From Daphnia carinata (Eukaryota): a stretch of 64,000 nt of DNA. Shown piece by piece: positions 46,961 to 57,069 of the stretch. Under the pieces are notes generated by a model that was not told the origin of the DNA, searched no databases, and saw only the letters and a program-made list of their open reading frames with translations. The translations under genes and the position numbers were made by a program. The stretch covers positions 11,408,001 to 11,472,000 of the forward strand of contig NC_081331.1 of NCBI RefSeq assembly GCF_022539665.2, read 5' to 3'. The first letter of the stretch is position 1; every line of letters starts with the position of its first letter.

Positions 46961-47144
46961 CCGTCAAGTTACTATGTTTAACATTTGTTGATGTTTTCGG
47001 TTAATAAGAATTTTATTAAAATTAAACGTCATTATTATTAATTCATTAATAAAATTTACGCATCGTTTTGTATTTGTATTAATTTTAGTAAGAACTTTAA
47101 ATACAATTTCTGGCAACAGTCAGCCGAGGTGAAATCAGCTGATC

Positions 47145-47504
47145 CAGTTTGAATTACCGACATTGAAGAAAAAACATGGCCATGGCCACACTAACCTAAC
47201 GTTAAACTCAGCATTGTAAGGCGGCGTTTTGGTCCAATCACGTCGGTAAACTAATGGACTATTGTTTTCTTCTTCATTCAATGGAATTGCTCATGTTTTC
47301 GTAATGATAACAATGTTTATTACGTATTCATGGGACTGAAAAGTCAGGGGAAAAGCTGACGCGGTGGCTAGCTTTCGTGGCTGATACTGCTCGCTTAGAT
47401 CCAGGCTGATCAGTAGCAAATTTCCTCGAGAAAATGCACCATCCCGTGTTATGGATGCACAGGTTACTATACCTGTGTCGTTCAAGGGAGTACGTGCGAC
47501 ACAC
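47145..47504 (+). ncRNA. TERC: Candidate telomerase RNA (TTAGG template, pseudoknot, CR4/5-like junction, box H/ACA)
   Basis: Template CTAACCTAAC at 47191-47200; boundary hairpin 47177-47188; pseudoknot 47222-47261; P1 47161-47176 with 47263-47283; three-way junction 47355-47414; H box AGAAAA 47429-47434; 3' hairpin 47435-47498; ACA at 47499-47501. The 5' end is approximate. Confidence 0.75.
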
Positions 47505-48080
47505 AACCTTTTGTTGCATTGTGCATGTTTACTATTTGTGATATAACATATCTGTTTCATTTTGCTTGTGTCGAAGTTGTCTAATGAAACTTGACTACCA
47601 TATGGTAAACTTGTAACCATATGAAAATATTTGTACCAACAATGTAAGTTAGATTAAACAAATTGCTTGTATAGTATAATTCATAAATTTGATATTAAAT
47701 TTTCCATTTTTTTTTGTGTGATTGATTTGAAATCAAACCATTCAAGAAAATAGCTCATTGTTTGGTGAGGTTCTAAAGGTCTTAAATTTGTGTATAAACA
47801 CTAGAGAGAGAAGGGGAATTAAATATTTCTCAATGCTGATCAGCTTTACGGTACTTTATGTTGAAATCAAGGAAGTTTATTTACAAGAATCAGGGTTGTT
47901 TTAACCATTGCTGGCCATGGTCTCATTTAAGTTTCTTAAATGTTTAATGTCATTGAGAATGATTACATCAAGCATTTTGCTACTTAGTAATTTTATTTGG
48001 CATATCATTTACAAGACATTTGTTTATTTCTGCGTTCCAGGCATCTCCGAAAATACTTGTAGAATTTGCATAGATTTGGA

Positions 48081-51000
48081 TTAAGCGACAGTAGATAACA
48101 GATTGTCAAATTTAAACAGTTCAACTAGATCTTCCGTGCGTGCAGTATCGGTTAGCATTTTTTCTAATGAAAAATACTTTTGAGAATTTCTTACTTCAAG
48201 CTCACCATGGAATTCTCTGTGGCAGACGAACAATTCCAGCAGAAAATCTAAGTATACAAAACAATTTTCTGAATAAGCAAGCAGTACAAGAAGACAGAAG
48301 TGTCTTTGGCTAATTATACTTTGATATTCTTCGACAGGATACATGTCACCGGATGCCTGCTTCTCTTTAGCCGCTCGAACCATGTCTTGAAACTCGGCGG
48401 TCATCCAGTCGTCAGTCGCGTCTTGCGCAAGCTGGTCTGTTGCTGCTTCTTCCAACGCCAAAGCCAACACATTCGCTCGATGTAGGTGAGTCAAATTCAA
48501 CAGTTGAGAATAGACTTGTTGCAAAAGAATTTTCGTTGCTTCCCAGGTCATGTTAGCGTTCATTGCCAAGGGAACACTTTTTGCTGTGGCTTCTCTTGAA
48601 ATGAAGTCTCGGACATATGACAAGATCACTGCATTATCTGAGAGGAGCATGATTTCACCCCGCCTGTTTGATCCAATGCAAAGGGCCGTTACAATCTATC
48701 TGGAGCCGTGCCCACTACCCAGTTACCTGTAATGAACGGCCAATTTGGATTGCCATTGGTCATTACGGAAATAAAAGTGAATCTCTTCATCGCCTGGGAC
48801 TTTATCCGGAATATTAGGTAAGCAGGATGCAATCCAGTTGTGAGCATCCGCCTGTGAGAACCCTCCTTGCAATGTCAAACTACCATAGGGTGTTGCCGTG
48901 TTCCATTCAAAAAGTTGGCATCGTACGTGGCGACAAAGGCAAACCAGCGGGAATGACTTCAGTATAACCAAACGAGGCTGCTGAATGTTTAACGAGACGT
49001 ATAACTGCACCTGGTCACTAGTACTTCGCTCGTTACAGACAAGTTTCATTTCAAGTCGCGTGGTATTGGATTGGCATCTGAAAGTTGCTGTTAGCTGAGA
49101 GGTGCCATTCTACGTGGAATAATTGAATAAAAATTGTGATTTTCGTTACAGATCGGTAAGTAATAGGTCAGACAAACCCGCTTAGAATCCATTAAGCTCA
49201 GAATGGCTAAATTCCGCTCGATGTCCATAAGTTGAACGTTTGTGTTGCTCTGGACGAGAATAAAGTTCATGGACACTTGACTGTCCACGACAACAAAATA
49301 GGCATTTTGTTGGGCTACGAAATTCATCTTGCATTAGAAGGTAAGTTAGATAAATCTTGGTAACAGAAATGTTATTAATAATTTTGCATTAATACTTTCG
49401 CTGTGACGTCTAATTGCGTAGATGTTTCCATTGCTTGACTCTCTGATACCAGCATAGAAGGCCTGTTATTCTGCGCTTCCTCCACCTGCCTTTCTAGGAA
49501 TTCTACTTCAGATCTAAAAGTATTGAAAACGAAATGTGGAGGACTGTAGGTTGCCGCTAAAGCAAATCACATAAAAGTATGTTATCTTACTTGAGATATT
49601 GTAGGTGCTTCTGGCGTTCTGAGCTGTGAGTGTTTGTTCGGGCCGCTGTTACTTCGTCTGTTTGCTTCCTACGCATCGTTGATTCACAGCTGGTAAGGCC
49701 AAATATCCAACCTTCCTCAAGACATCGAGTTTAAGTATTGACCAAGTAATTGACGTTAATGCTGAAATAACGGCTTGTACAATACGTACCCCGTTGTGTA
49801 GCGACTAATACTTCGGGAAACCCAGCTGCCCCGACAATTCCACCTCGTACAACTGCAATACTATCATTACAATTCTAACATTATGATTAACTAGGTGCGA
49901 TATCAGAATTGCCTTATAAAACATGAGTGACGTCCTCATACCTGTGAGAAGATTAAAATCGGACTGCGCATTGCACCATCTTCGGGTGATACTTGATAGA
50001 CGTCGACAAAACCATCTTCCCTGCCGATGATCAACTGGTTAGCACCCGAATCGCAGAGGTCGTAAAAATCTAACGAAGTCACAGTCGTTTGAGAAGGTAG
50101 TTGCATAACCCATTCAACCGCAGGGCCAGCACGACTCCAGCGGACCAGTCCAATCTGACCAAGTGATGTTCCGTATACTACCCACTCCCCACTGGTCCCA
50201 CCATCGTTTTGAAACAGTTGCATCGCTGTGGGTATACCATCAAGTGGCAGTCGATGTCGAACAGCCGAATCTCTGAGGGAGTAAATGGTTCCATCTTGGC
50301 ATCCTAGCAGCGGAGTCAAACTTGGCACCTGTTAACGGAGCGTTTTCCAGTCTTTATGTAAAACAACATAGCAAGAGAACTAAAAAACGAAGGTATGTAC
50401 CTTGTTCAGAGGGAGGACTGCTACCGCGTTGATACGGTCAGTAGAAAGGAAATAATTAGCCTCCTTCCCGTTTTGATAGTGGTTATAAACGTAGGAGTTG
50501 AAAACAGCCATCTCCTCCTTGCTGGCCATCCACCTGCACGGACATAGTACGAATTTTCTACTGTCACGCCCACCATCGACATAAACATTGCTCACATAGT
50601 ACAAGAGACGGATATAGAAACATGACTCACAAATGCTGAATGGGTTCTACCAGGTTCGTATCCATTTTAAAAATCAGCTTGCCCTTAACTGAAAAGCACT
50701 GCACTGTTTGTGCAGTTGCTGTTACAATCATCTCTAATGCAGGTTCTATGTTCACCAGATGTACCATTAAGTTCAAAAACATTTTAAGGAATCCACTGAT
50801 ACGTAACAACAAAGCAGAAATAATTTGTACTTACCATTGTTATTGACAAGAATTGTGACACAGTTTATAGGAGATTTGAGGTCTATTTTGAAGTCCACGA
50901 AAGGTTCTCCCTTTTTTATGGAAATCAGTTGCAATTTTCCTCTTTGGTCCCCAATAGCTACCTGTGCGACAGGTAACGCATTTACGTGATAAAGAAAATT

Positions 51001-53787: not shown

Positions 53788-56281
53788 CTAATGACAAATG
53801 TACATCACTGTGTCTTGGTCCAATTCCGCCTCATCAACCAGAATCACGTGTTCAATGGTTAGCGAATCGGTGCCGCCCTAAACATTAGCGAAGTAAGTAC
53901 ACCAAGTCTTATTTAAGCTACAAAACCGAATGCCTCATTACCTCTTGCACCGCTTCTGCTTCCAGGATACATATTTCCTGCATGCTAGTGTCATTTTGTT
54001 TGGATTCATACCTTCTGGCATTGTTTGGCGTGATTGGGGCGCTATTCCTTTTCCCTAGCTGGACTCAATTCGATTTGCAAACAACTGAATGGTAAAAACT
54101 TTAATTATTTTTTACCTTAGCTATCGATTCAGCTCGTGATAATCTGATGTCGCTCATTAATTCTTCGACCGTAATCGAATCCGGGAAGTCCGTATCATTC
54201 TCATCGTAGAAATCATTCAGGTTTGCTTTGAGTGTATACGCGTGATTAGCAAGTCGGTACCGACTTCTTGCTACTCTGACGTTAAAGAAGTCAGTGATCT
54301 TCATTAAAGATGCAACCAATCCATCGACTGACGACTTGCTCCATGTAAGACCCGATTCACTCAATCGTCTCATGACCCCACTAAATGATTCAGGCTGGTG
54401 GGCAGTCTGAAGAGATAATCCAAATGGGCGAAGAGCCCATGCACCCATTCTGTTCATGTCAGGATCGATTGCCACGTCAAAATAATCAGAAAACTCCTAC
54501 GAAATAATAAATTCTAAGCTATTATTAATCCAACACGGCGCATTTGCTTTGCTTACCTGCTTCCATTTCTTCAGGTAAAACTGAGCAAGGAGCGACTTGT
54601 ATTTACCAGCCGAGTCTTGATTCAGTAGACGAATGAAGTCACTTTCATATTGCTGAACTTCTTGTTTTTCGGTTATGTTTAATGATTGTAGATTGCTTTT
54701 GATGCTTTGAAGTGCATGTTGCCAGCAACGGAGTCTCGTAACGCCAGGACAATTTTTCTCGATGGCACTGGTGATTGCGACGTCTTCATCGCTGATGATG
54801 ATGATTCGCTCGGGTGTCTCAAACTCTGGGACTGCCGTAGCAAAGCGCATGAAGAAGGTATCATGTACTAGGGGCGTATCCTTTTCGTATATCACGTACA
54901 TCAGCGGGATTACGGGCGTGTCTTCAAACTCTGTTTGTCGAAATGTTAAGACTGAAAGACAAAACTCGCCGAAGATAAATGTGCTGCCGTACGTAAGACA
55001 CTGTACAGTAAGATCCTCTCTTTTGATGAATTGCCTGAATTCCGCCACAGTACCTTCATTCAAGAAAACAACATTTAAACGCTCTTACTAAAGCTTTTTA
55101 GTATACGCAAGACACGAAAACTTACTTTCATCGAAGCAAATGATAAGAATATTTGGTGCCACATGTAGATCACTCACAAAACCAGCGCCACTGGCATACA
55201 AATTGTATATAGCATCTACCGTTTCATGGCTAGAACGTTCAGTCTTGTTAAGGGATTTACGCTGCATCTTTGGCGTATTCCGAATCTGCTTCGTGCCATT
55301 TGGTGTTTCATTGAGTGAACGTTCGGCTCTGCGGATAAACTTTCGAGCATTTTGAATTTGCTTTACGTCTCTGGGTGCATCAATCATGTGACGAGCTCTG
55401 TTAGAACAGTCTGTTAACAGATCTGAATAGACTTGCAGTGGTAACTTCTCTGTCACCGTCTCCATCTGAATTTTTTTCAACACAGACGGCGCGGTACGAT
55501 GATATTCCTTTTCTGGATCTTTAGAGTTTCCATGCGCGAAATCTCGGACCACGGACTCGTCTCCCTGGTACCACACTAATACTTGATTTTCATGCAACGG
55601 GCATTCGATTGCATTTTTTGTAAATTCCGTGCTGAATTCCTCTCCAGGACCCACTTGCAATTTGAAATAATAGCGCTTGGATTCCAAATCATTATAGGTG
55701 AATCTTGTCACTGAATTTTGTCTCCAGCGGTAACCGTCGACCCGCCAATCTTGGCGCTTTAAAGGAATTTCCCACTTAAAAATGTATCTGAAACCACCTT
55801 TCGGGCGAAGAGGAACTTCACTAAGTATTGGTAAACCGGCTTCCGGTAGAAAAAGCTTCATTTGATTTTCAAATCTCTGTGGTGCTTTGCCGTGCTTATC
55901 CAGGTCTGTGGCATCCTTTAGAGCAGCATTAATGGCAAGAGTATCATCACCTTGATACCAGATTAAGATCTTATTCTCATACAATGGACTTTCAATTGCA
56001 TGTCTGGTGAAATCTGTTGTATATTCATTTCCTGGCCCCACTTGCACCTTGAAGTAATAGCGTTTGCAATCAACATCTCCATACTTGAATGTAACAGTTG
56101 AGTACTGCCTCCAACGAAATCCATCTGAACGCCATTCTTGGCGTTTGAGCTTATCCTCCCATTTGAATATATACTGAAAGCCAGTTTTGGGGCGGATTGG
56201 AACTTCAGTTAAAACAGGCAAGTTTGACTTTGGCTCAAAGAGCTGCATCTGAATTTCATATCTTTGCGCTTTCTTCGCCAT
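53788..56281 (-). CDS. MULE (Mutator-like) transposase-derived gene with two tandem CG-1-like domains, probably domesticated
   Basis: Two RPKxGFxYIF...WRxDG(F/Y)RWRQ...WYQGD repeats; HGNSK...YHRTAPS; PRDVKQI; MULE core YGSTF.FGEF...PVIP...IISDEDVAI...LRCWQH. Five coding exons with intact splice sites. Confidence 0.75.
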
Positions 56282-57069
56282 CCTACTGTTTGTTGGAAAA
56301 AAGATGAGGAGCAGGCAAATCAACTTCTAGATGCTACTTTCAGCTTTACTGTGTGGGTAATCAATGTAGCAAGACCTTCTGAAGCAGAACCTCCTGATGC
56401 ATTTTATGTAAGTATCAACCAGTATCACTAGATCGAAGAAACACAATCACTGATGGTGAAAGGCGGAATAGTATAATGGAGATGTTTCGGACGACCTCAC
56501 AAGAAGTGTTTTTTCTCGATCTAAAATAAGAATCTCATAAGTTGGTGCAAACAGCATACCATTATCCACGTTAAATGAATTAGGATTTTCACCTCTTCGT
56601 TGCTCCTCTTTTTTAATTTGGATGTTTTGTTCTTGAAATTTTGGGTAACTTGTCGAGAAGATAACTTTTAACGAACCAAACAGCTTCAAAACGTCATGAG
56701 CTTGGGAAATGTGTTGTTGTTGCGCGGAATTCCGCGTAAGCTATTGTAGTCGCAGCGTCGCAGATTCAGAATCGCAAGTTCGCAACTAGGACAAAAAGTG
56801 GTAAAAAAACAATAGAATCAATTTTGAAACGCTAGTTTGATTTCCTTTATTTTAATTCAACGTTTACTTTGCCTTAAATAAAAAGAACAAAATATTTTCA
56901 TTGACTTATTGTATAATAGATCTACGTGGCAACGTAGAGTAATTTAATTATGTTTGTCCAAATCGTCTGCATGAATTTTTGTTTTTATTCAATATAACAC
57001 ACATGTGCGAGGTTCAAACACTGAGTTCTAAGAGAATTTTGTTAATCAACAGAAGTCATCGATATCTAA

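What the first reader, a model, noticed from the sequence alone, without database searches (positions are those of the whole stretch)
47145..47504. Candidate crustacean telomerase RNA hidden between NHE and BBS7
Seen in the sequence, in the 5'-to-3' order expected for an animal telomerase RNA. (1) CUAACCUAAC (47191-47200) is two copies of the complement of TTAGG. (2) A UGGC-CAUG-GCCA hairpin ends 2 nt before it, where invertebrate TRs have the P1.1 template-boundary element. (3) An H-type pseudoknot: CGGCGU 47222-47227 with ACGUCG 47240-47245, a U-run loop, UGGUCCA 47230-47236 with UGGACUA 47255-47261, and an A-rich loop. (4) P1 closes the domain: CAUUGAA 47161-47167 with UUCAAUG 47277-47283, plus the adjacent A-run with UGUUUU. 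(5) A long hairpin 47290-47334 and a GACU-GAAA-AGUC GNRA hairpin. (6) Stem GGGGAAA/UUUCCUC encloses a three-way junction: GCUGA/UCAGU, a P6-like arm 47361-47390 and a small P6.1-like hairpin 47393-47406. (7) H box AGAAAA, a well-paired 3' hairpin (UGCAC/GUGCG, UCCC/GGGA, CACAGGU/ACCUGUG), then ACA plus 3 nt. Established knowledge: TTAGG is the common arthropod telomere repeat, and vertebrate and most invertebrate TRs use this template/pseudoknot, CR4/5, H/ACA layout. Inference: this is the organism's TR, transcribed by Pol II (TGGCAAC, CAGCTG and a CAGT initiator lie upstream). Caveats: the P6.1-like loop lacks the vertebrate UUG motif and no CAB box (UGAG) is evident.
Basis: partly seen in the sequence, partly recalled or inferred. 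Interest (0 to 1): 0.96.

Follow-up and report, generated by a model that had tools for sequence, protein, structure and literature searches.

The report
Likely water-flea telomerase RNA gene
A single-copy, non-coding, strongly folding stretch between two Daphnia-like genes is conserved in related water fleas and present in their RNA libraries, and it is likely the still-unknown telomerase RNA of crustaceans, probably keeping the classical animal layout that the insects studied so far have lost.

Summary
Taken alone, the 10-mer and the pseudoknot are no more than chance. New evidence makes the locus a real gene. Contigs from RNA libraries of related species cover it. In two studies a contig stops at 47162 or 47164, where a DNA contig of the same relative runs on.

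Two relatives differ from the window at 25 displayed sites within 47162-47504. Of these, 23 leave the proposed helices intact (permutation P = 5e-5). Indels are 2 events inside 47162-47502 against 8 in the next 138 nt (P = 0.001). Only the + strand folds better than shuffles (z -2.75 against -0.90). The template, boundary hairpin and pseudoknot are unchanged or wobble-compatible, and the linker after the template is the most variable stretch.

My reading is a telomerase RNA of about 343 nt (47162-47504), with probability about 0.7. Given that, an H/ACA-type 3' half has probability about 0.65.

Open points:
- The 3' end and the promoter are unmapped.
- The H box is broken in one relative.
- No double-sided compensatory change was seen.
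- No link to TERT has been shown.

No crustacean telomerase RNA turned up in the searched library.

The parts
47162..47504 (+). Proposed non-coding RNA gene (about 343 nt). The 5' end is hinted at by contigs. The 3' end is inferred.
   Evidence: RNA-library contigs of relatives stop at 47164 (X18) and 47162 (X20), where the DNA contig X12 runs on to 47062. Indel-poor zone 47162-47502. z = -2.75 on the + strand.
47164..47176 (+). P1, 5' strand (UGAAGAAAAAACA). It closes the template/pseudoknot core.
   Evidence: 13 pairs with 47263-68 and 47270-76. Such helices occur in 1.2% of shuffles. No change in relatives B or C. The fold-back junction in X18 joins 47277 to 47164, as this register predicts.
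47263..47276 (+). P1, 3' strand (UGUUUU-C-UUCUUCA, C47269 bulged).
47177..47188 (+). P1.1-like template-boundary hairpin (UGGC CAUG GCCA).
   Evidence: C47186>U in B and C turns G-C into G-U.
47191..47200 (+). Candidate template CUAACCUAAC. This is two repeats complementary to TTAGG: 5 nt for alignment and 5 nt for templating.
   Evidence: No difference listed in any contig that covers it (X12, X6, X20, X22, X18, X8).
47201..47221 (+). Linker between template and pseudoknot. It is the most variable part of the RNA.
   Evidence: 3 substitutions within the 9 nt 47209-47217.
47222..47261 (+). H-type pseudoknot: P2 47222-27/47240-45 and P3 47230-36/47255-61.
   Evidence: Pairs verified. The only change is A47261>G, which turns U-A into U-G. 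Not significant by pair count alone.
47290..47345 (+). Long hairpin (47290-47334) and small GAAA-loop hairpin (47334-45).
   Evidence: Changes 47311, 47312 and 47315 fall in the loop. 47319 gives U-G.
47347..47427 (+). Three-way-junction domain: P4-like stem, GCUGA/UCAGU, long arm 47361-90 and a 4-bp hairpin 47393-406. This is the candidate TERT-binding CR4/5-like element.
Evidence: 47364-47439 has 1 substitution in 76 nt against relative C.
47429..47434 (+). H-box-like hinge AGAAAA.
   Evidence: Relative B has AUAAAA, which still fits ANANNA. Relative C has a C inserted behind 47429, and no ANANNA remains.
47435..47498 (+). 3' hairpin (22 pairs).
   Evidence: 8 of 9 substitution sites in 47435-47504 are unpaired or pair-compatible, P = 0.004.
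47499..47501 (+). ACA directly after the 3' hairpin. The predicted 3' end is 3 nt later, at 47504.
   Evidence: ACA is unchanged in C. The first downstream indel lies behind 47503.
47505..47640 (+). 3' flank. It can still be aligned in relatives but tolerates indels. Possibly a processing or termination region.
   Evidence: 15 substitutions in 136 nt. 47503-47640 holds 8 indel events over B and C together, one of them behind 47503.
47062..47161 (+). Upstream region that must hold the promoter. It is unresolved.
   Evidence: The DNA contig of relative C aligns here, with insertions of 5 and 4 nt at 47088 and 47090. There is no TATA box near -30 (read).

Best explanation
This is a single-copy non-coding RNA gene on the + strand (about 47162-47504) that is likely the telomerase RNA of this Daphnia-like water flea.

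Inferred mechanism:
- The unpaired CUAACCUAAC would align a TTAGG chromosome end on its 3' half. Its 5' half would template the next repeat.
- The UGGC/GCCA hairpin 2 nt upstream would stop copying.
- The 13-bp P1 helix and the compact pseudoknot would form the catalytic core.
- The very conserved three-way junction (47347-47427) would bind TERT, as a CR4/5-like element does.
- The hinge, 3' hairpin and ACA would recruit the H/ACA proteins. These would define the 3' end at about 47504 and stabilise the RNA.

What is shown and what is not:
- Shown here: presence in RNA libraries of relatives, conservation, structure-preserving substitutions, and strand.
- Inferred: template use, TERT and dyskerin binding, the exact ends, and Pol II transcription.

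I put about 0.7 on 'telomerase RNA' and about 0.65 on 'H/ACA-type 3' half' given that. The confidence figure below is for the whole statement.
For: (1) Relatives and RNA libraries.
- I laid 8 of the 24 listed runs. 7 gave contigs and X2 gave none.
- Contigs in RNA libraries from five studies cover the locus at about 92% identity: X8, X18, X23 and X20, X22.
- X18 has a 159-nt contig with word depth 1299.5 that starts at 47164.
- X20 has a 232-nt contig with word depth 1191.8 that starts at 47162.
- The adjoining contigs have depths 170.9 and 73.9.
- DNA contig X12 of the same relative runs collinearly from 47062 to 47640.

(2) Junctions at the contig starts.
- Both look like reverse-transcriptase events at an RNA 5' end.
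- In X18 the 23 loose letters are the reverse complement of 47277-47299, joined to 47164. That is what snap-back through the 13-bp P1 predicts.
- In X20, 47363 is joined to 47162.

(3) Constraint.
- Against relative C there are 12 substitutions in 278 nt (47162-47439) and 23 in 201 nt (47440-47640). Fisher P = 0.004.
- Indel events over B and C together: 2 in 341 nt against 8 in 138 nt, P = 0.001.

(4) Structure.
- 23 of 25 displayed substitution sites are unpaired or keep a standard pair. Permutation P = 5e-5.
- For relative C alone the figure is 18 of 20, P = 0.003.
- Slid-partner controls give 4-7 breaks against 2.
- For the 47435-47504 stretch (3' hairpin plus ACA tail) the figure is 8 of 9, P = 0.004.

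(5) Strand.
- z = -2.75 on the + strand against -0.90 on the - strand.
- 12 G-U pairs exist only on the + strand.

(6) Telomerase logic.
- The two-repeat template is unchanged.
- The boundary hairpin and pseudoknot change only to wobble pairs.
- The linker behind the template is the most variable stretch.
- Daphnia has TTAGG telomeres and active telomerase (PMC4427308, passages).

(7) The locus is single copy in the window.

(8) H/ACA telomerase RNAs are ancestral in animals (PMC8480181). They are also reported for Caenorhabditis (PMC12921731). An arthropod that keeps one is therefore plausible.
Against: - Nothing links the RNA to TERT or dyskerin.
- Among the 25 sites there is no double-sided compensatory change. 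Divergence is only about 5-8%, and only two relatives are available.
- The list for relative B is incomplete: 21 of its 36 differences were displayed.
- The pseudoknot is not beyond chance (13% of shuffles).
- Telomere-like 10-mers occur by chance. A second one lies at 33461, and 7 of 100 shuffles contain the exact 10-mer.
- The H box is broken in relative C by an inserted C.
- G47349>A breaks a pair of the P4-like stem in both relatives. G47477>U breaks a pair of the 3' hairpin.
- No Rfam family matches, including the telomerase models.
- All arthropod telomerase RNAs described so far are short and lack H/ACA (PMC9841428, PMC11892584, PMC13023368).
- The RNA evidence is from assembled contigs of relatives. 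These cannot show strand, ends or level, and no RNA run of the window's own organism was found.
- The X20 junction at 47363 and the X22 contig ending near 47433 leave the 3' end open.
- The promoter is unidentified.
Confidence: 0.47

Rival explanations
1. It is the telomerase RNA, but of the short, insect-like kind. The mature RNA would end between about 47363 and 47440 (200-280 nt) and carry only P1, P1.1, the template, the pseudoknot and some 3' stems. The downstream hairpin and ACA would be a processing or termination element, not an H/ACA protein-binding domain.
For: - All known arthropod telomerase RNAs are short and lack H/ACA. They are 135 nt in Spodoptera, and the median across the insect TRs reported so far (at least Hymenoptera and Lepidoptera) is 187 nt (PMC11892584; PMC12921731; PMC13023368).
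- The X20 contig closes on itself at 47363>47162, a 202-nt cycle.
- The substitution rate rises from 4.3% to 12.3% after 47439.
- The H box is lost in relative C.
- By contig-depth arithmetic, X20 cannot hold full depth out to 47504.
Against: - The indel-poor zone runs to 47502, not to 47363 or 47439.
- Substitutions in 47435-47504 avoid the stems: 8 of 9 are neutral, P = 0.004.
- 47364-47439 is the most conserved part (1 change in 76 nt).
- The X22 contig runs past 47363 to about 47433.
- The 47363 junction can be template switching onto an internal G.
- The inner P2.1 stem of insect cores is absent.
Confidence: 0.23
2. It is a real structured non-coding RNA that has nothing to do with telomerase. 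One example would be an orphan H/ACA-type sca/snoRNA with a long 5' extension. The CUAACCUAAC would then be a chance match.
For: - The 3' 158 nt (47347-47504) have the size and two-hairpin layout of an ordinary H/ACA RNA.
- Telomere-like 10-mers arise by chance.
- In Spodoptera, 3,065 transcripts carried a putative template (PMC11892584).
- The pseudoknot is not significant.
- Contig word depths of about 1200-1300 would be high for a telomerase RNA. Depth of contigs is, however, a poor measure.
Against: - The motif sits unpaired, 2 nt behind a hairpin, inside a P1-closed domain, followed by a pseudoknot. It is unchanged in relatives while the adjacent linker varies.
- My rough estimate, not a computation: a random 10-mer hit would fall on the sense strand of an unannotated conserved small RNA in far fewer than 1 case in 1000.
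- No Rfam snoRNA or scaRNA family matches, even at E up to 10.
Confidence: 0.22
3. It is not an independent gene. The conservation and RNA cover would come from read-through of the NHE gene, from an extended antisense 3' UTR of BBS7, or from DNA carried over into RNA libraries.
For: - The stretch lies between two convergent genes.
- Long contigs in X18 (1907 nt) and X20 (1778 nt) run from inside it on towards BBS7.
- Contigs carry no strand.
Against: - RNA-library contigs stop at 47162 or 47164, while the DNA contig goes on.
- The contig over the core has 7-16 times the word depth of the adjoining one.
- The NHE AATAAA lies at 47048, and the BBS7 signals (- strand) at 47876-48023.
- Substitutions preserve + strand pairs, including G-U.
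- The 120-codon open frame on the - strand has no Pfam match and is hit by 1-nt indels in relatives.
Confidence: 0.05

Closest known systems
Protostome box H/ACA telomerase RNAs of molluscs, annelids, a brachiopod and a phoronid, such as the apple snail RNA tested in vitro (Logeswaran et al. 2020, PMC8480181; passages read)
   Same: - Order of parts: P1.1 boundary hairpin next to the template, then the pseudoknot core, then one or two long stems, then a P4-connected domain in place of the canonical CR4/5, then H box, 3' hairpin and ACA.
- Size is a few hundred nt.
   Different: - The template is for TTAGG, not TTAGGG.
- There is no detectable sequence or covariance-model similarity.
- That study searched arthropods and found no convincing candidate.
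- The H box is not kept in one relative.
- TERT-dependent activity is untested here.
Insect telomerase RNAs: Spodoptera sfTR of 135 nt (PMC11892584), Tribolium TcTR1/2 (PMC13023368) and the Hymenoptera RNAs (PMC9841428)
   Same: - TTAGG-type template.
- P1.1 hairpin a few nt upstream: 4 nt in sfTR, 2 nt here.
- Compact pseudoknot core of about 115-135 nt (47162-47276 here).
- Hymenoptera also have a core-closing stem (P1c).
   Different: - Insect RNAs stop after the core, lack CR4/5 and H/ACA, and have snRNA-type PSEA promoters.
- sfTR has no P1 and has an inner P2.1 stem.
- Here constraint continues for a further 230 nt or so, with two more domains.
- No P2.1 is present.
- The promoter type could not be tested.
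Caenorhabditis intron-encoded telomerase RNA with H/ACA boxes (PMC12921731; passages read)
   Same: It is an ecdysozoan telomerase RNA reported to keep H/ACA motifs, with a template of about 1.5-2 repeats.
   Different: The nematode RNA sits in an intron of nmy-2 and would be made by splicing and trimming. This one lies between two convergent genes and needs its own promoter.
Vertebrate telomerase RNA (Rfam RF00024)
   Same: Three-domain layout: template/pseudoknot closed by P1, a three-way junction with a 4-bp P6.1-like hairpin, and an H/ACA tail.
   Different: - No match to the Rfam model.
- The boundary is set by P1.1, not P1.
- The pseudoknot is much smaller.

Membership tests
Animal box H/ACA telomerase RNA | Unpaired template of at least 1.5 repeats, complementary to the species' telomere repeat | tested here: met
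   CUAACCUAAC at 47191-47200 equals 2 repeats. It is unpaired in the centroid fold. It is unchanged in all contigs that cover it. TTAGG is the Daphnia repeat (PMC4427308). The telomeres of this very genome could not be checked because no genome is held.
Animal box H/ACA telomerase RNA | Template-boundary helix (P1.1) just 5' of the template | tested here: met
   A 4-bp hairpin at 47177-88 ends 2 nt before the template. C47186>U in both relatives keeps the pair as G-U. Its boundary function is untested.
Animal box H/ACA telomerase RNA | Pseudoknot 3' of the template, with the core closed by a long-range helix | tested here: inconclusive
   The 6 + 7 bp pseudoknot is present, with only one wobble-compatible change. 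Equally large ones occur in 13% of shuffles. There is no covariation. The 13-bp P1 is significant (1.2% of shuffles).
Animal box H/ACA telomerase RNA | CR4/5 or equivalent TERT-binding stem-junction domain | tested here: inconclusive
   The three-way junction at 47347-47427 is near-optimal in energy (-22.3 against -24.4) and is the most conserved part. G47349>A breaks a P4 pair in both relatives. There is no vertebrate P6.1 loop motif. Binding is not testable here.
Animal box H/ACA telomerase RNA | H box (ANANNA) in the hinge between two hairpin domains | tested here: inconclusive
   The window has AGAAAA at 47429-34. Relative B has AUAAAA. In relative C a C is inserted behind 47429 and no ANANNA remains in the hinge.
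Animal box H/ACA telomerase RNA | ACA exactly 3 nt from the mature 3' end, after a 3' hairpin | tested here: inconclusive
   ACA at 47499-501 directly follows a 22-bp hairpin whose substitutions avoid the stems (8 of 9 neutral). Indels begin behind 47503. The 3' end itself was not mapped, because contigs cannot show ends.
Animal box H/ACA telomerase RNA | Association with TERT and dyskerin, and template-directed repeat synthesis | not testable with these tools
   This needs immunoprecipitation, reconstitution or mutagenesis.
Animal box H/ACA telomerase RNA | Match to a curated covariance model (Rfam telomerase families) | tested here: not met
   There are 0 matches at gathering score over the window. 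In 46900-47750 at E up to 10 the only hit is a chance-level one to Ocean-V. This is expected for a divergent telomerase RNA, so it weighs little.
Insect-type short telomerase RNA (snRNA-type promoter, no H/ACA) | Mature RNA of about 130-220 nt ending soon after the pseudoknot core | tested here: inconclusive
   The X20 junction 47363>47162 would fit 202 nt. However, constraint on indels and on structure runs to about 47502, and X22 covers up to about 47433.
Insect-type short telomerase RNA (snRNA-type promoter, no H/ACA) | PSEA-type snRNA promoter about 40-60 bp upstream | not testable with these tools
   No snRNA gene lies in the window and no genome is held. The supplement with arthropod snRNA promoters could not be read. 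By eye, the insect T5-C6-N-C8 core (PMC1761439) is not matched at 47101-47121.
Insect-type short telomerase RNA (snRNA-type promoter, no H/ACA) | Inner P2.1 stem-loop within the pseudoknot (Lepidoptera, Coleoptera) | tested here: not met
   Only 3 nt (47237-39) lie between the P3 5' strand and the P2 3' strand.
Ordinary box H/ACA sno/scaRNA | Two hairpins with H and ACA boxes, about 120-160 nt, matching a known family or guiding a known target | tested here: inconclusive
   47347-47504 has the layout and the size. No Rfam family matches. Guide pockets could not be tested without the organism's rRNA. A 185-nt 5' extension carrying a template is not a feature of ordinary members.

The most novel reading that the evidence does not exclude
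This is the first telomerase RNA of a crustacean. It is also the first arthropod telomerase RNA that keeps the full ancestral animal design: a template/pseudoknot core closed by P1, a CR4/5-like three-way junction and a box H/ACA tail. If so, the shrinking to a bare core and the switch to snRNA-type biogenesis seen in Hymenoptera, Lepidoptera and Coleoptera happened inside the hexapod or insect lineage. They would not date from the origin of arthropods or ecdysozoans.
Probability: 0.45. Interest if true: 0.9.

Novelty: new member of a known kind. Interest (0 to 1): 0.8.

Why it matters
Telomerase RNA is the fastest-evolving essential part of telomerase. A structure-guided search across animals reported no convincing arthropod candidate (PMC8480181).

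[quoted passage not shown] A 2025 review asks explicitly for telomerase RNAs from other arthropod lineages (PMC12133305).

A branchiopod RNA with the classical layout would date that switch and give an outgroup for the insect forms. It would also supply the missing subunit for Daphnia, an ageing model with lifelong telomerase activity (PMC4427308).

My searches of the held library found no crustacean telomerase RNA. Subscription journals are not covered.

Tried and rejected
- **Rfam.** Nothing at gathering score over the whole window. At E up to 10 over 46900-47750 there was only a chance-level Ocean-V hit.
- **Own genome.** None is held. I could not count other template-bearing loci or check the telomeres.
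- **Relatives' DNA as loci.**
  - The exact 24-mer of the pseudoknot gave 0 hits in metagenome contigs, genome contigs and viral contigs.
  - A BBS7 protein scan of metagenomes aimed at the syntenic flank gave only two short contigs of the N-terminal half (L001, L002). An alignment that included the window's exon fragments was unusable.
  - So no alignment, R-scape-type covariation test or covariance model could be made.
- **Runs.**
  - X2 (organism B) gave no contig. This is no evidence of absence.
- **3' end from depth.**
  - Mean contig depths allow an end anywhere from 47363 to about 47500 in X20 and up to about 47546 in X18. The two runs cannot be reconciled under one read-through ratio.
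  - I therefore draw no 3' end from depth.
  - The parts of RNA contigs without cover upstream of 47162 are only a hint.
- **Pseudoknot significance.** Not significant by pair count.
- **Coding potential.**
  - The open frame 47291-47653 on the - strand has no Pfam match.
  - 1-nt indels in relatives fall inside it.
  - Only 6 of 29 substitutions fall on its third codon positions (hand count).
- **Promoter.**
  - The bacterial-type promoter and terminator scan is irrelevant here.
  - The supplement with arthropod snRNA promoters (PMC9841428 Table S3) was unreadable and may bear on this point.
- **Earlier scan notes.** There are none for this genome and no look-alike by sequence.
Full report
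**What is in the sequence.**
- CTAACCTAAC at 47191-47200.
- A UGGC-CAUG-GCCA hairpin that ends 2 nt before it.
- A compact H-type pseudoknot: 47222-27/47240-45 and 47230-36/47255-61.
- A long hairpin (47290-47334) and a GAAA-loop hairpin.
- A GGGGAAA/UUUCCUC stem that encloses GCUGA/UCAGU (47355-59/47410-14) and two arms.
- AGAAAA at 47429-34.
- A 22-bp 3' hairpin (47435-98).
- ACA at 47499-501.

Taken singly, several of these are no more than chance.
- The exact 10-mer appears in 7 of 100 shuffles.
- A second permutation of the repeat lies at 33461.
- A pseudoknot of 13 or more pairs is found in 13% of 2000 shuffles and in 16% of 1500 random windows.

No Rfam family matches.

**Setting.**
Pfam places a Na+/H+ exchanger on the + strand to the left (exons up to about 46477) and BBS7 on the - strand to the right (last coding exon 48081-48695). 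The stretch therefore lies between two convergent 3' ends. The nearest poly(A) signals are at 47048 (+ strand) and at 47876-48023 (- strand).

The last BBS7 exon is 74% identical to Daphnia sinensis and 54% to D. pulex, so the organism is a daphniid water flea. Daphnia telomeres are TTAGG, and telomerase is active throughout life (PMC4427308, passages). No genome is held for the window. The stretch is single copy within the window.

**Relatives and RNA libraries.**
One index search listed 24 runs.
- One run holds 85% of the sampled words (organism A, DNA).
- Five runs hold 15-17% (organism B).
- Seventeen runs hold 7%. These are organism C and several metatranscriptomes.
- One further run of organism A, listed because it shares X1's sample, holds next to none of the words.

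I laid 8 of the 24. All are assembled contigs. By the tool's own warning they cannot prove strand, ends or level.

Seven of the eight gave contigs, at about 92% identity, and X2 gave none. Every contig aligns only within about 47155-47640, with two exceptions:
- The DNA contig X12 of organism C runs collinearly from 47062.
- Some contigs pick up again after an unalignable 66-176 nt beyond 47640.

In two independent metatranscriptome studies a high-depth contig begins at the same place.
- X18: 159 nt, word depth 1299.5, starting at 47164.
- X20: 232 nt, word depth 1191.8, starting at 47162.
- The adjoining contigs have depths of 170.9 and 73.9.
- Three low-depth RNA-library contigs from three further studies begin at 47185-47191 (X22, X8, X23).

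The two high-depth contigs carry odd junctions at their start.
- In X18 the 23 loose letters are the exact reverse complement of 47277-47299 in relative C's version, joined to 47164.
- In X20 the first 30 letters repeat 47334-47363, so 47363 is joined to 47162.

I read both as reverse-transcriptase artefacts at an RNA 5' end: snap-back of the cDNA in X18 and template switching in X20. This is inference. The snap-back joins 47277 to 47164. A 13-bp helix between 47164-76 and 47263-76 predicts exactly that junction.

**Conservation.**
For relative C the displayed list is nearly complete. All 11 of X20's differences in 47162-47363 were shown, and 26 of 28 in 47334-47640.

| Region | Substitutions against C |
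|---|---|
| 47162-47439 | 12 in 278 nt (4.3%) |
| 47440-47504 | 8 in 65 nt (12.3%) |
| 47505-47640 | 15 in 136 nt (11.0%) |

- The first region against the rest gives Fisher P = 0.004.
- Indel events over B and C together are 2 in 47162-47502 against 8 in 47503-47640 (P = 0.001). The first downstream indel lies behind 47503, one base before the 3' end that the ACA rule predicts.
- Within the RNA, the template, the boundary hairpin and the pseudoknot show only two changes. Both give G-U pairs (47186, 47261).
- The 9-nt stretch 47209-17 behind the template has three changes.
- 47364-47439 has one change in 76 nt.
- For relative B only 21 of 36 differences were displayed, so its list is partial.

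**Structure.**
- With this model, 23 of the 25 displayed substitution sites are unpaired (17) or keep a standard pair (6). Two break a pair (47349, 47477).
- Re-dealing the same base changes over the RNA reaches this in 5e-5 of 20,000 trials.
- With relative C alone the count is 18 of 20 (P = 0.003).
- Sliding the 3' partners by 1-3 nt gives 4-7 breaks.
- With the minimum-energy version of the junction domain the count is 22 of 25 (P = 0.00035).
- By region: the core with its hairpins scores 11 of 11 (P = 0.019), the 47435-47504 stretch (3' hairpin plus tail) 8 of 9 (P = 0.004), and the junction domain 3 of 5 (not significant).
- None of the 25 sites is a double-sided compensatory change, so this is selection against disruption, not covariation.
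- The + strand folds better than shuffles (z = -2.75, 0 of 100 shuffles as good). The - strand does not (z = -0.90, 19 of 100).
- Twelve pairs are G-U and exist only on the + strand.

**Why telomerase RNA.**
The data above show a conserved, structured, + strand RNA gene that no curated family explains.
- It is unpaired.
- It lies 2 nt behind a hairpin.
- It sits inside a helix-closed domain.
- It is followed by a pseudoknot.
- It is unchanged in relatives, while the neighbouring linker varies.

Read as a template, 47196-47200 would align a ...GTTAG end and 47191-47195 would direct the next GTTAG. A47190 would give a non-telomeric base, which fits a boundary at the hairpin.

A chance 10-mer would very rarely fall on the sense strand of such a gene. 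This is my rough estimate, not a computation. I put about 0.7 on telomerase RNA.

**H/ACA or short.**
For an H/ACA tail:
- The indel-poor zone ends at the predicted 3' end.
- The 3' hairpin keeps its stems while its loops change.
- ACA directly follows the hairpin and is kept in relative C.
- The hinge reads ANANNA in the window and in relative B.
- H/ACA is ancestral in animals and is reported for Caenorhabditis (PMC8480181; PMC12921731).

Against it:
- Relative C has a C inserted in the hinge, which removes any ANANNA.
- The X20 junction at 47363 and contig-depth arithmetic leave room for a shorter RNA.
- All arthropod telomerase RNAs described so far are short and lack H/ACA (PMC9841428; PMC11892584; PMC13023368).

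I put about 0.65 on the H/ACA form, given that this is a telomerase RNA.

Three internal T4 runs (47227-30, 47265-68, 47296-99; read) argue against Pol III. The promoter could not be tested. There is no TATA box near -30. The insect PSEA core (PMC1761439) is not obviously matched. The supplement that lists arthropod snRNA promoters could not be read.

**Literature.**
Searches for 'telomerase RNA' with Daphnia, with arthropod/TTAGG/template, with crustacean and with Pancrustacea found no crustacean telomerase RNA. A mixed-term search with other arthropod groups listed none either.
- The 2020 animal-wide study states that its arthropod searches failed.
- The 2025 review and the 2026 beetle and nematode papers still describe arthropod telomerase RNAs as short and lacking H/ACA.
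- Subscription journals are not in the library.
- Two earlier notes of this scan describe H/ACA-type candidates in other arthropod-like genomes. They are unchecked, share no words with this sequence, and count here only as context.

**Limits.**
- No RNA run of the window's own organism was found.
- The evidence comes from contigs only.
- Only two relatives are available, and they are close.
- There is no covariation.
- No ends are mapped.
- There is no promoter and no protein link.

The claim is a well-supported candidate, not a demonstrated telomerase RNA.

Noticed in passing
window 33461-33470 (+): A second telomere-complement 10-mer (CCTAACCTAA) lies in an AT-rich stretch, followed by an A-run. 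It looks like a chance match and serves as a reminder that such motifs are not rare.
   Followed up: partly
window 47162/47363 and 47164/47277 (contigs of runs X20 and X18): RNA-library contigs of a relative carry two different odd junctions at the RNA's start. One is a head-to-tail join, 47363>47162, giving a 202-nt cycle. The other is a fold-back that joins the reverse complement of 47277-47299 to 47164. I read both as reverse-transcriptase artefacts. A real circular or processed 202-nt form is not excluded.
   Followed up: partly
window 47505-47640 and 47641-47707: The 136 nt after the proposed RNA still align in both relatives at about 89%, with many indels. The next 66 nt or so are replaced by unalignable sequence of similar length. 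This may be a 3' processing or termination region.
   Followed up: no
window 47291-47653 (-): A 120-codon stop-free frame runs antisense to the RNA. It has no Pfam match, and 1-nt indels in relatives fall inside it. It is most likely not coding.
   Followed up: yes
window 54497-55084 (-) and 55088-56326 (-): These open frames carry a weak MULE transposase domain match and a CG-1 (CAMTA-type) DNA-binding domain match.
   Followed up: no
window 46868-46912 (+): An (ATTT)n microsatellite runs into a T-run of about 15 nt, downstream of the NHE coding exons. Read laying skipped it as a repeat.
   Followed up: no
window 39662-40138 (-): An exon-like frame matches GDP-mannose 4,6-dehydratase and NAD-dependent epimerase families (E = 9e-26).
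   Followed up: no
L001, L002 (metagenome contigs): Two short environmental contigs encode the N-terminal half of a BBS7 that is 74-76% identical to Daphnia BBS7. Daphniid DNA is therefore present, sparsely, in the metagenome collection.
   Followed up: no
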